Shown here piece after piece: positions 22,186 through 42,810 of a DNA stretch of 64,000 nucleotides. The stretch spans positions 896,001-960,000 of the forward strand of contig CP147780.1 in assembly GCA_037310415.1 (NCBI GenBank), in the 5' to 3' direction. A program made the translations under genes and the position numbers. The stretch is from Candidatus Atabeyarchaeum deiterrae (GTDB lineage Archaea; Asgardarchaeota; Atabeyarchaeia; Atabeyarchaeales; Atabeyarchaeaceae). Positions within the stretch are counted from its first letter, which is position 1. Each line of letters begins with the position of its first letter. The notes under the pieces were generated by a model. That model was given only the letters and a program-made list of their open reading frames with translations. It was not told the origin of the DNA and made no database searches.

Positions 22186-23381
22186 CTATATCCTTCCTTG
22201 ATGGTTTCTTGGGTTGTTGAGTGATACTGCATTTCCCTGCAAGCATTTCCCTCGTATTCCTATTCTGTAGTGGCAATCGGGGCAGGTATTGTCTATCTGA
22301 TCAATTGCACAATATGCTATGCTCAGTCCACTGCGCTCTATCAAGAGATTGTTGCATATTGGGCAATAAGTATTCTCTCCTGGGTGCCCAGGCACATTTC
22401 CGAGGTAAACGTATCTCAAGCCTTCTTCTAGACCGATCTCCCTTGCTCTTTCCAGAGAGCTGATCGGAGTCTGCTGGGATAGACCAAGTGCCAATGCCTT
22501 GTGTGCAGCATAATATCTTGTGCAGTGCCATGGCACTTCAGCGCCCAGTTCATTTCTCATCCTAGACGCAATCAATCTAAGTATGGTTTCCTTGTCGTTG
22601 ACAGTGGGAATAACCAAAGTGACTACTTCGATGTGTTTCCCATACTTCTTCAATTCTCTCAGATTTCGCCAGACTATTTCGGCATCTACTCCGCAATACT
22701 TCCTTACGGCAATTGCGTCACCTTTTACATTCACACAGAAAGCATCACAGCCACTATTAACTATGAGTCTGAGCGCTTCTAATGTTGAATAGAGATTCGT
22801 TACATAGGTATTGTAAAGTCCCTTCTCCTTAGCTCTTCTCATCACGTCGAGGGAGTACTCGAAAAGAGATGTAGACGGTTCATTGAAAGAGAAGGATGTT
22901 CCATTGGAATGGGATCTCTTTGCTAGACTTACAAGTGTCTCTGGGTCTATGTAATTCGCATTGGAAGGGCTCGGGGGAGATTTGCTGACATCGAAATTCT
23001 GACACCTTGCCCGTCAAGATGCAACTTTCCGAAGGATGCACTTTGTCGCATCCTTGACTATGGGCATGTGAGATTACACCCGTAGCTCCCCACGGTCAAC
23101 GCCAAGCTTCCTGGCCAGAAATGAAAGAGCGGCTTCTTCTCAATTGGGTTCACGCTCATAGTTGAAATATCGCCGTATGTAACTGAATATAGTGTACCTT
23201 CGACGTTCATCTTAGTTCTACAGAAGCCTGCTTTTCCCTTGTCTATCGTACACCTTCGCTCACAGACGCCACATCTGACCCTTCCCCTTGACAAGCGCTC
23301 GTATAGCGGTGATTCTCTTACCCATTCTCTCTCAGTGAGACCTCTGTCCAAGCCCAAGAGTCTATTGCTCCTAATCTTCAC
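22186..23381 (-). CDS. AmmeMemoRadiSam-type radical SAM enzyme, spliced (exons 23381-23060 and 23006-22186; 380 aa)
   Basis: CGVCERRC, PIEKKPLFHF.PG, GCNLTCP|WCQN after intron removal, FNEP, YVYLGNVPG, TYCPIC. Confidence 0.9.
23007..23059 (-). other. 53-nt archaeal BHB intron in mRNA
   Basis: Canonical hBHBh': GCCC/GGGC central helix, AU|A and AA|G bulges, 13-bp intron stem. Confidence 0.88.
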
Positions 23382-23854
23382 TTCCTGATTATTCTTAGAT
23401 CCTGAAGGATCAGTTCCGCAACCTTGTCGACAGTCTCTCTGATCTCTCTGCTGAGCTCAGCCGAGTACATTTTCAGTTCCGTTATTTCGATCCCGTATAT
23501 GATGATCTTCTTTGGCATTTCGTCGGGGTAGACCGACTTTCCAATTTTTATCATTTCGGGCAAGCCGACATCGTGGGCGGAAGTTGGGTGAAGTGATGTC
23601 TTGACTTTAGTATCGATGTCGTTACCAGTTAATCGGTGAATTCTCCCAGGTGTATCACCTGCCAAAGAGTCTATGAATATGGCCCAGTCGAAGCCCTTAA
23701 CATTGTCAAGAAGAGCTAAGCCGCCGACTCCCCCTTCAACAAGCTCAACCCCTTTGGGCAAACGCGCAGAGCGCAACTTGTTTAAAACGTGTACCCCCAC
23801 ACCCTCGTCTCCAAGCAAAGTATTCCCTATGCCTACTATCACTACCTGTTTCAT
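23378..23854 (-). CDS. Hydrogenase maturation protease
   Basis: GIGNTLLGDEGVG, IDS, SAH. Confidence 0.93.
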   Translation of the reverse strand: MKQVVIVGIGNTLLGDEGVGVHVLNKLRSARLPKGVELVEGGVGGLALLDNVKGFDWAIFIDSLAGDTPGRIHRLTGNDIDTKVKTSLHPTSAHDVGLPEMIKIGKSVYPDEMPKKIIIYGIEITELKMYSAELSREIRETVDKVAELILQDLRIIRK

Positions 23855-23965
23855 TTCTATCCCTCGCTTTCTTGGAGTCATATTAAGGAAAGAAACCGAA
23901 TCAAAGATTGCACTCTCCTTGTTAGATTTGGTCTACTGCATCACGGATCGTCTGCTTTAAGGTCA

Positions 23966-41923: not shown

Positions 41924-42810
41924 TCACATTTGAGCACTCTTCAGAGCGTCCTTGCATTCACACTTTCTTTCCTTTGGAACCTTCGGTATCACGCTGAAAA
42001 GCAGCTTGTTGACGTCCTCAATGTTTTGCTTCATAGACTTCACGACCTGTTCCGCCGTCACTGGTTTCAAACCATAGACATCAGTATCAGTAGGCATCGC
42101 TATGTTGGCAAAGCATATCTCTGCTTCTCTGGCAAGAGCACATTCAGGATAGGCCGTCAGTGCGGGGCAAATCGGTTCTTCACCTAATTCCTTGCCTTTC
42201 CGACAACATCCCATCCTTGTCTCTTGTAGAAGAGGGACTCTGCTCTGGTTGAGAATCTTGGTCCTTCGATGCAAACGTACTCAAACGAGTCATGATCTCT
42301 GGAGTTCTCTTTGGCGTGAATCTTCATGCCCAGTTTGGTAGCCGTATCCATTATCGTCTTTCTAAGCTCACTGCAAAACGGCTCAGCGAATGCGATGTGT
42401 CCTACAATGCCTCCGTCGAAGAAGGTTTGGTTCATTCGTGGCGCTGCAGTGAAGGTGACTATCTGGTCGCATGCTACGAATTCGCCGGGTTTGATTCTGT
42501 CAGGCTGTAAGCTTCCCACCGCGGCAGGGCTAATTATTCGCGTGACGCCAAGCGCCTTCATGGCCCAGATGTTGGCCCTGAAGTTAATTTTATGCGGAGG
42601 TATTCTATGTCCTCTTTGATGCCTGACTAGGAAGGCTACTTTCCTATCACCAATGTAGCCGACAAAAACATTATCGCTGGTCGCTCCATAAGGTGTGTAC
42701 ACTTTGAGTTCCTTTGCTTCCTTCATTATCTTGGGGTCGTAGCTGCCTGAACCCGCGAAAATGCCAATCTCTGCGTTTTCATGTGGGTCTATTAAACCAA
42801 TCATGCACAT
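41924..42810 (-). CDS. mtaP: 5'-methylthioadenosine phosphorylase, spliced (exons 42810-42198 and 42159-41924; 282 aa)
   Basis: GSG, TPYG, RH..GH..PPH..N.RANI, EGPRFSTRAES, VVG|MTAYPE after intron removal, LAREAEIC, TD.D. Confidence 0.9.
42160..42197 (-). other. 38-nt archaeal intron with relaxed BHB/BHL motif in mRNA
   Basis: CGG/CCG helix, AA|A bulge, GGCAA/UUGCC intron stem, AC|U 3' site; excision gives GGA ATG ACG. Confidence 0.82.

What the first reader, a model, noticed from the sequence alone, without database searches (positions are those of the whole stretch)
23007..23059. Canonical bulge-helix-bulge intron inside the CxxxCxxC motif of an AmmeMemoRadiSam radical SAM gene
The minus strand reads ...CUC ACA UGC CCA U|AGUCAAGGAUGCGAC...GUUGCAUCUUGACGGGCAA|GG UGU CAG AAU. 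The fold is: outer helix ACAU/GUGU, 4-bp central helix GCCC/GGGC, 3-nt bulges AU|A and AA|G, and a 13-bp intron stem with one bulged G. Removing 53 nt gives C-N-L-T-C-P-W-C-Q-N and one 380-aa ORF joining 23058..23381 to 22186..22845 through the FNEP motif. Unspliced, UAG falls exactly on the junction.
Basis: partly seen in the sequence, partly recalled or inferred. Interest (0 to 1): 0.95.

Follow-up and report, generated by a model that had tools for sequence, protein, structure and literature searches.

The report
tRNA-type intron inside Asgard enzyme gene
A 53-base intron of the kind archaea normally cut out of tRNAs splits the iron-sulfur motif of a radical SAM enzyme gene in an Asgard (Atabeyarchaeia) archaeon; comparison with relatives indicates it is removed from the messenger RNA, something published for only one other archaeal protein gene (cbf5).

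Summary
Observation confirmed, interpretation supported. On the minus strand, 53 nt (23059..23007) interrupt the Trp codon of the CxxxCxWC motif of a TIGR04337-type radical SAM gene. The flanks fold as a textbook hBHBh' motif. The canonical cuts give one 380-aa frame that is colinear with the family profile (position 83, then 86).

The genome is an Atabeyarchaeia (Asgard) chromosome encoding two EndA paralogues and RtcB. Twelve other, different introns (29-52 nt) sit at exactly this site in relatives and metagenome contigs. All keep the two 3-nt bulges and the 4-bp helix, and every predicted splice gives TGG or TAT. Across the 8 Atabeyarchaeia-type introns the hairpins covary: 87% of cells paired against 25-41% in slid controls, with 7 pairs changed on both sides. 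Atabeyarchaeia-1 and 77 of the 80 nearest orthologues have exactly one codon there. dN/dS is 0.07, so this is not a pseudogene.

No RNA run was available, so splicing itself is inferred.

Four other protein genes of this genome are interrupted in the same way: MTAP (in this window), gatE (the only copy), glyA and a RuBisCO-like gene. In print, cbf5 is the only known coding-sequence case. Earlier follow-ups of this scan reported similar introns in other Asgard genomes.

The parts
23060..23381 (-). Exon 1: GTG start (overlaps the HycI stop as GTGA) through C-N-L-T-C-P plus the first base (T) of the split Trp codon
   Evidence: TIGR04337 profile 4-83, 82.9 bits
23007..23059 (-). 53-nt BHB intron: third bulge nucleotide A, a 13-bp hairpin with one bulged G and a 19-nt loop, the 3' strand of the central helix (GGGC), then AA
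   Evidence: homologous introns of 48-52 nt in 7 related sequences with covarying stem; unique in the genome
22186..23006 (-). Exon 2: GG of the Trp codon, the third cluster Cys, Q-N, the GTSFSFNEP motif and the rest of the enzyme, including the stop codon
   Evidence: TIGR04337 profile 86-329, 144.3 bits; Radical_SAM PF04055. The first in-frame start codon is 53 codons downstream of the junction
23062..23069 (-). Exonic 5' strands of the outer helix (ACAU) and the central helix (GCCC)
23059..23061 (-). 5' bulge AUA; predicted cut between 23060 and 23059; creates UAG directly after CCA in the unspliced RNA
23009..23012 (-). Intronic 3' strand of the central helix (GGGC)
   Evidence: 100% paired in 8 homologous introns
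23006..23008 (-). 3' bulge AAG; predicted cut between 23007 and 23006
23002..23005 (-). Exonic 3' strand of the outer helix (GUGU)
23378..23881 (-). Upstream hydrogenase maturation protease gene (HycI), overlapping the radical SAM start by 4 nt; probably the same operon
   Evidence: PF01750; the same gene order in related contigs

Best explanation

Proposed mechanism:
1. The HycI-radical SAM transcript folds locally. Exon 1 (ACAU-GCCC) pairs with exon 2 (GUGU) and with the 3' end of the intron (GGGC). This leaves two 3-nt bulges (AUA, AAG) on opposite strands of a 4-bp helix, capped by a 13-bp intron hairpin.
2. The tRNA splicing endonuclease EndA cuts after the second nucleotide of each bulge. 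The genome holds two paralogues, read here as a catalytic alpha and a structural beta subunit.
3. RtcB joins the exons to CCA-UGG-UGU.
4. Only the spliced mRNA encodes the 380-aa enzyme with an intact C-x3-C-x2-C [4Fe-4S]/SAM motif. Unspliced RNA stops at UAG after 107 residues.

Shown here: the sequence, the fold, exact colinearity with the family profile, same-site recurrence with covariation, purifying selection, and the presence of the enzyme genes.

Inferred: the actual cleavage and ligation, the alpha/beta assignment of the EndA paralogues, and any regulatory use of the intron.
For: 1. Geometry and frame. The canonical cuts remove 53 nt and give one 380-aa ORF. The pieces match TIGR04337 at profile positions 4-83 and 86-329 with nothing missing or extra.

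2. Intronless comparison. Of the 80 nearest orthologues (archaea and bacteria), 77 have exactly one codon between C-P and C. Atabeyarchaeia-1, from the same family, has CCC TGG TGT.

3. Same-site introns elsewhere.
- G002/LC30, 52 nt, and G009, 29 nt.
- Nine metagenome loci with introns of 52, 29, 33 and 30 nt.
- Five more of 48-50 nt, found through a protein-based search for N fragments ending in C-P followed by a stop.
- In total 13 distinct intron sequences. All show GCCC-AU|A, a hairpin, GGGY, and a 3-nt bulge. All splice to TGG or TAT.

4. Covariation. In 8 homologous introns, 86.8% of cells are paired against 25-41% in slid controls. Seven pairs change on both sides, and 0 of 500 shuffles reach the observed score. 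Hairpins of the non-Atabeyarchaeia introns are unrelated in sequence but intact, two of them with a single mismatch or bulged nucleotide.

5. Selection. dN/dS is 0.071 against L157 (exon 1 0.046, exon 2 0.081), and 0.12 between two close intron-bearing genes. All spliced relatives are full-length open frames.

6. Machinery. Two EndA paralogues and RtcB.

7. Other interrupted genes in the same genome. glyA, MTAP, a RuBisCO-like gene and gatE show profile colinearity once a BHB-like insert is removed. The interrupted gatE is the only GatB/GatE-family locus in the closed genome.

8. Not an assembly artefact. The 53 nt are present in DNA contigs from four studies.
Against: - No RNA evidence: no RNA run holding the locus was available, so the spliced junction has not been seen.
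- The nearest-neighbour MFE prefers a 5-bp helix with a 2-nt 3' bulge over the canonical 4-bp/3-nt register. With longer flanks a non-BHB fold of similar energy competes.
- In the Tyr-type relatives the outer helix is weak, with a U-U mismatch next to the bulge.
- A second, higher-scoring intact TIGR04337 paralogue exists, so loss of this copy might be tolerated.
- Motif plus ORF joining alone is not significant genome-wide.
- Both searches for further examples favoured sequences with a stop directly after C-P.
Confidence: 0.9

Rival explanations
1. Pseudogene: a 53-nt insertion inactivated a redundant radical SAM paralogue and is decaying neutrally.
For: A second intact TIGR04337 paralogue scoring 338 bits exists. 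The insert brings an immediate stop and a frameshift.
Against: dN/dS is 0.07 in both exons. There is no other stop or frameshift in any of 13 interrupted orthologues. The insert's helices are maintained by compensatory changes. Independent sequences of 29-53 nt all sit at the same nucleotide with the same bulge geometry.
Confidence: 0.03
2. Translational recoding: ribosomes bypass the insert, as in phage T4 gene 60, or frameshift across it, with no RNA splicing.
For: A stop codon directly follows the last sense codon and a strong hairpin follows it, which superficially resembles a bypass signal.
Against: There is no landing codon matching the CCA take-off codon near the 3' end. The conserved Trp/Tyr codon can only be formed by joining 1 nt from the 5' side to 2 nt from the 3' side. 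Gap lengths range from 29 to 53 nt with unrelated sequences but a constant BHB geometry. A frameshift would leave 10-17 extra residues inside C-x3-C-x2-C.
Confidence: 0.02
3. A split enzyme: the two ORFs are translated separately and assemble into a two-chain radical SAM protein.
For: Public gene callers annotate two genes, an N piece of 99-107 aa and a C piece of 201-269 aa.
Against: In the exon 2 frame the first ATG/GTG/TTG is 53 codons downstream of the junction. Separate translation would therefore lose the third Cys and the conserved GTSFSFNEP block, yet these codons are under strong purifying selection. The Trp/Tyr residue would be absent.
Confidence: 0.02
4. Assembly artefact or DNA-level excision: the 53 nt are absent from the expressed DNA template.
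For: None found.
Against: The stretch is present in identical or near-identical contigs from four studies, and no intron-less joint was listed. Contigs drop rare variants, however, so a minority excised form cannot be excluded. The insert is too short to carry recombination functions.
Confidence: 0.01

Closest known systems
cbf5 pre-mRNA intron of Crenarchaeota (Desulfurococcales, Sulfolobales; Watanabe et al. 2002; Yokobori et al. 2009, PMC2738675)
   Same: A short BHB intron inside a protein-coding sequence, removed by the tRNA splicing endonuclease and a ligase. It shows lineage-specific presence and absence, including precise loss, and gene callers mis-annotate the gene as two ORFs.
   Different: A different gene (radical SAM enzyme, inside its Fe-S motif) and a different lineage (Asgard/Atabeyarchaeia). 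The same site is occupied by unrelated introns in several divergent orthologues. It is one of several interrupted protein genes in the genome. Splicing has been shown experimentally for cbf5 but not here.
Archaeal tRNA/rRNA BHB introns, including the very intron-rich tRNA genes of Atabeyarchaeia and Freyarchaeia (PMC11291895; preprint 10.64898/2026.10.13.758758)
   Same: The same hBHBh' motif, the same size class, the same predicted enzymes, and the same host lineage. The tRNA preprint likewise reports repeated gains at sites able to form the motif.
   Different: The host RNA is an mRNA, so splicing changes the reading frame and removes a stop codon. Those papers describe tRNA introns only.
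BHB intron in the 5' UTR of Haloferax volcanii HVO_1309 (PMC7714728)
   Same: An mRNA substrate of EndA.
   Different: That intron lies in the UTR and does not interrupt a coding sequence.
HAC1/XBP1 unconventional mRNA splicing in eukaryotes (established knowledge; RtcB role noted in PMC8718801)
   Same: Non-spliceosomal cut-and-ligate removal of a short intron that changes the reading frame. The ligase is RtcB in animals.
   Different: The endonuclease is Ire1, which recognises paired stem-loops, and splicing is stress-regulated. No regulation is shown here.

Membership tests
Archaeal bulge-helix-bulge (EndA-type) intron | Two 3-nt bulges on opposite strands separated by a 4-bp helix | tested here: met
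   AUA / GCCC:GGGC / AAG. The central helix is 100% paired in 8 homologues. Caveat: the MFE prefers a 5-bp helix with a 2-nt bulge.
Archaeal bulge-helix-bulge (EndA-type) intron | Flanking helices h (exon-exon) and h' (intron) | tested here: met
   Outer helix ACAU/GUGU, 4 bp including U-G. Inner helix 13 bp with one bulged G. The outer helix is weaker in the Tyr-type relatives.
Archaeal bulge-helix-bulge (EndA-type) intron | Cuts after the second nucleotide of each bulge yield the functional mature RNA | tested here: met
   In silico, the cuts give CCA-TGG-TGT, a 380-aa ORF and profile colinearity 83 to 86. The same rule gives TGG or TAT in all 13 variants.
Archaeal bulge-helix-bulge (EndA-type) intron | Host encodes the splicing endonuclease and an RNA ligase | tested here: met
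   Two PF01974 genes (103.9 and 70.4 bits) and RtcB (582 bits).
Archaeal bulge-helix-bulge (EndA-type) intron | Cleavage and ligation observed on RNA (spliced junction, circular intron) | not testable with these tools
   No RNA holder was listed, and the only runs are DNA contigs.
AmmeMemoRadiSam system radical SAM enzyme (TIGR04337) | Whole-protein score above the curated cut-off (220 bits) | tested here: inconclusive
   The spliced protein could only be scored as two pieces, 82.9 + 144.3 bits. A second paralogue scores 338 bits.
AmmeMemoRadiSam system radical SAM enzyme (TIGR04337) | C-x3-C-x2-C cluster motif | tested here: met
   C-N-L-T-C-P-W-C, present only after splicing.
AmmeMemoRadiSam system radical SAM enzyme (TIGR04337) | Genomic association with AMMECR1 and Memo genes | tested here: not met
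   The neighbours are HycI, two proteins without a Pfam match, and TrmI. AMMECR1 lies at 792,928 and Memo at 523,935 of the chromosome.
Programmed translational bypass (T4 gene 60 type) | Matching take-off and landing codons flanking the gap | tested here: not met
   The take-off codon would be CCA. There is no CCA at the 3' end of any of the variants, and the aromatic codon is composite.

The most novel reading that the evidence does not exclude
EndA/RtcB splicing of messenger RNAs is a routine layer of gene expression in Atabeyarchaeia, and probably in other intron-rich Asgard lineages. A set of ordinary protein genes, including the only gatE copy, need BHB-intron removal to be translated.

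The same coding site has acquired unrelated mini-introns repeatedly in divergent orthologues. This implies an active, still unknown insertion or homing-like process that targets mRNA-coding DNA as well as tRNA genes in the closest prokaryotic relatives of eukaryotes.
Probability: 0.6. Interest if true: 0.9.

Novelty: new member of a known kind. Interest (0 to 1): 0.8.

Why it matters
In the papers I could search, a BHB intron inside an archaeal coding sequence is documented only for cbf5 of Crenarchaeota (PMC2738675; stated explicitly in PMC7714728).

This case adds a second gene family and places the phenomenon in Asgard archaea, the lineage closest to eukaryotes. It comes with unusually strong comparative support: 13 intron variants at one nucleotide position, covariation, and purifying selection.

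It has four consequences:
- Standard gene callers split or truncate real genes in these genomes. Public annotations list two ORFs here.
- The broad-specificity splicing endonuclease has mRNA substrates.
- Intron gain and loss in protein genes can be studied in a prokaryote: the site is absent in Atabeyarchaeia-1, present in its relatives, and recurs in distant orthologues.
- Because other genes of the same chromosome are interrupted in the same way, the question "do Asgard archaea splice mRNAs?" becomes directly testable with the existing wetland metatranscriptomes.

Tried and rejected
- RNA evidence: no RNA holder was listed for the locus, and only DNA contigs could be laid.
- Genome-wide strict hBHBh' plus ORF-joining scan (intron length 15-150 nt): 205 hits against 201-245 in three decoy geometries, with the same score distribution. 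A structure-only census is not informative, so I dropped it.
- Repeat or mobile-element origin: the 53 nt are unique in the genome. The best other match, 20 nt at 2,408,465, lies inside an open reading frame and looks like chance.
- Rfam: no family matches in 22800-23300 at E <= 1.
- Embedded C/D-box RNA: no box C/D motifs by eye in the intron.
- Class-level survey: the class holds only 3 species genomes.
- Phylum survey (400 genomes): only G000, G002 and G009 have the short insert. G244, G277 and G252 were contig-end truncations.
- The 'careful' 96-row tree did not finish in time, so the quick tree and a 51-row AU test were used instead.
- I did not identify the organisms behind the non-Atabeyarchaeia metagenome contigs.
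- The spliced protein could not be sent whole to the family, structure or homology tools, because it is not a direct translation of the DNA. It was analysed as two pieces.

Full report
**1. The observation**

The minus strand of 23381..22186 holds two ORFs in different frames. One is 107 aa and ends ...G-C-N-L-T-C-P followed by TAG.

- Outer helix: ACAU (23069-23066) pairs with GUGU (23005-23002).
- Central helix: GCCC (23065-23062) pairs with GGGC (23012-23009).
- Bulges: AUA and AAG are the two 3-nt bulges.
- Intron stem: 6 + 7 bp with one bulged G.

RNAfold on 81 nt returns this architecture at -26.9 kcal/mol, z = -3.1. There is one difference. The U before GCCC pairs with the first A of the 3' bulge, so the MFE has a 5-bp helix and a 2-nt bulge. 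For the two relatives whose stems are uninterrupted (G009, L122), the canonical register costs 2.5-4.3 kcal/mol more; the own-sequence figure there is not comparable, because the canonical evaluation left out the upper 7 bp of the stem beyond the bulged G. A competing fold appears with longer flanks.

Cutting after the second nucleotide of each bulge removes 23059..23007 (53 nt). This gives C-N-L-T-C-P-W-C-Q-N in one 380-aa frame.

**2. The gene**

- The N piece matches NCBIfam TIGR04337 (AmmeMemoRadiSam system radical SAM enzyme) at profile positions 4-83. The C piece matches at 86-329 from its first residue. The spliced product is therefore exactly colinear, with P and W filling positions 84-85.
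- Pfam finds Radical_SAM in the C piece.
- The chromosome also has an intact paralogue scoring 338 bits.
- AMMECR1 and Memo lie far from both paralogues.
- The interrupted gene overlaps the stop of a HycI hydrogenase maturation protease gene by 4 nt. This gene order recurs in related contigs.

I therefore call it a TIGR04337-like, HycI-linked radical SAM enzyme of unknown substrate.

**3. The organism and its splicing machinery**

- The window lies in a closed 2,756,679-bp chromosome with 46.6% GC.
- Its class holds only three species genomes.
- The nearest records are 'SRVP18_Atabeyarchaeia-1' (CP147779.1) and isolate LC30. The host is therefore an Atabeyarchaeia (Asgard) archaeon, probably the Atabeyarchaeia-2 genome of PMC11291895. 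That last identification is an inference from size and habitat.
- That paper reports introns in 92-95% of tRNA genes but says nothing about protein genes.
- ARAGORN finds only 24 tRNAs, nearly all with introns.
- The genome encodes two EndA paralogues. One is 238 aa with the conserved His context. The other is 198 aa without it, which I read as an alpha/beta pair (inference). It also encodes RtcB.

**4. Comparative evidence at the same site**

Intronless orthologues:
- Of the 80 nearest orthologues in archaeal and bacterial genomes, 77 have exactly one codon between C-P and C.
- Atabeyarchaeia-1 reads CCC TGG TGT.

Same-site inserts:
- LC30 has a 52-nt insert at the same nucleotide.
- A genome of another Asgard family (G009) has a 29-nt one.
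- A metagenome scan for the 5' junction found nine more loci, with inserts of 52, 29, 33 and 30 nt.
- A protein-based search, which does not depend on the DNA junction, found eight clusters of N-terminal fragments ending ...C-N-x-[T/S]-C-P.
- The DNA of five of these clusters carries inserts of 48-50 nt.

In total there are 13 distinct intron sequences. Every one has GCCC-AU|A, a hairpin starting directly after the bulge, GGGY and a 3-nt bulge. Every predicted splice produces TGG (Trp) or TAT (Tyr), the aromatic residue expected in C-x3-C-x-aromatic-C.

Structure conservation:
- Hairpins of the non-Atabeyarchaeia introns are unrelated in sequence but intact, two of them (L169, L117) with one mismatch or bulged nucleotide.
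- The 8 Atabeyarchaeia-type introns can be aligned. Across them, 86.8% of cells pair, against 25-41% when partners are slid by 1-3 columns.
- Seven pairs carry changes on both sides, against 1-3 in the slid controls.
- No shuffle out of 500 reaches the observed covariation score.

**5. Not a pseudogene, artefact or recoding site**

- Selection: dN/dS against the 77%-identical L157 gene is 0.071 (exon 1 0.046, exon 2 0.081). Between two close 33-nt-intron genes it is 0.12.
- Integrity: all spliced relatives are full-length open frames.
- Assembly: the 53 nt stand in DNA contigs of four studies.
- Split enzyme: in the exon 2 frame the first start codon is 53 codons after the junction. Separate translation would drop the third Cys and the conserved FSFNEP block.
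- Bypass: there is no landing codon matching CCA, and the aromatic codon is composite.
- Mobile element or known RNA: the insert is unique in the genome and matches no Rfam family.

**6. History of the intron**

- In gene trees the intron-bearing genes fall in at least four places.
- An AU test rejects holding them together (p = 0.003, delta lnL 72). I named the group after seeing the tree, so this is indicative only.
- Within the well-supported Atabeyarchaeia clade, eight genes have the intron and only Atabeyarchaeia-1 lacks it. Its position there is unresolved.
- Atabeyarchaeia-1 shares a genus code with intron-bearing LC30, so a precise loss is the simpler reading (inference).
- Recurrent occupation of one site matches what a 2026 preprint reports for Asgard tRNA introns.

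**7. The wider pattern in this genome**

Starting from first-stage notes of this scan, I tested four other genes myself:

- glyA: SHMT profile 4-54, then 56-399, across a 41-nt insert.
- MTAP, in this window: PNP_UDP_1 profile 2-173, then 176-232, across 38 nt at 42160-42197.
- A RuBisCO-like gene: a 28-nt insert whose removal restores G-G-G-I-H.
- gatE: a 41-nt canonical hBHBh'.

gatE is the only GatB/GatE-family locus in the closed genome, so it is unlikely to be dead. glyA has a second paralogue.

A structure-only genome scan cannot count such introns, because decoy geometries score as often as the real one.

Earlier follow-ups of this scan reported similar introns in Fe-S motifs of radical SAM genes in Odinarchaeia and in Freyarchaeia/Jordarchaeia. 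I did not test those.

**8. Comparison with what is known**

The searchable literature names cbf5 of Crenarchaeota as the only coding-sequence BHB intron. It adds a 5' UTR intron in Haloferax. No paper combining Asgard archaea, the splicing endonuclease and protein-coding introns describes this.

Mechanistically this is the cbf5 kind. It is new in four respects: the gene, the Asgard host, the recurrence of unrelated introns at one site, and its company of other interrupted genes.

**9. Verdict**

This is a real BHB intron that must be spliced from the mRNA (confidence 0.9). Splicing itself remains to be seen on RNA.

Noticed in passing
window 42160-42197 (minus strand): A 38-nt insert splits the MTAP/PNP gene at D-V-V-G|M-T-A-Y. 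The pieces match PNP_UDP_1 profile 2-173 and 176-232. The fold is a relaxed BHB (AAA bulge, long exon-exon helix; z = -3.7).
   Followed up: partly
L178:2227-2267 (chromosome 2222226-2222266, minus strand): A 41-nt canonical hBHBh' insert in gatE: central helix AGGC/GCCU, AGA bulges, outer helix GUUG/CGAU. This is the only GatB/GatE-family locus in the closed genome.
   Followed up: partly
L179:1210-1250 (chromosome 652709-652749, plus strand): A 41-nt insert in glyA at Y-A-E-G-W-P-G-E|R-V-Y. SHMT profile 4-54, then 56-399. The inner helix is slightly irregular. A second SHMT paralogue exists at 82750-83808.
   Followed up: partly
L180:1482-1509 (chromosome 2663481-2663508, minus strand): A 28-nt insert in a RuBisCO-like gene. 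Removing it restores G-S-G-G-G-I-H-A-H-P and the last 44 profile positions of RuBisCO_large.
   Followed up: partly
L028:2135-10251 (Ca. Borrarchaeum weybense, G040): The orthologous radical SAM gene carries an 8.1-kb low-GC (29%) insertion just after the cluster motif. It is bounded by a 15-nt direct repeat (CAGAATTGTGGAATT), so it is probably an integrated mobile element. A second N fragment with the same break (P0009) exists in metagenomes.
   Followed up: partly
L018:2235-2240 region (G037, closed 3.6-Mb Asgard genome): The orthologue has a 1-nt frameshift in a T run inside the C-N-F-x-C codons. This is either a sequencing error or a real frameshift. It is not an intron.
   Followed up: no
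window 23378-23881, and L182, L183, L184, L187: The HycI hydrogenase maturation protease gene lies directly upstream of the interrupted radical SAM gene in every Atabeyarchaeia-type contig that reaches that far upstream. This is a possible functional link to hydrogenase maturation.
   Followed up: no
whole chromosome: ARAGORN finds only 24 tRNA genes, 20 of them with introns. Some calls have implausibly long introns, which suggests many multi-intron tRNA genes are missed.
   Followed up: no
first-stage notes e1-5460943 and e1-5461419: Further claimed mRNA introns in pcm, endoQ and a hypothetical gene of this chromosome. I did not examine them.
   Followed up: no
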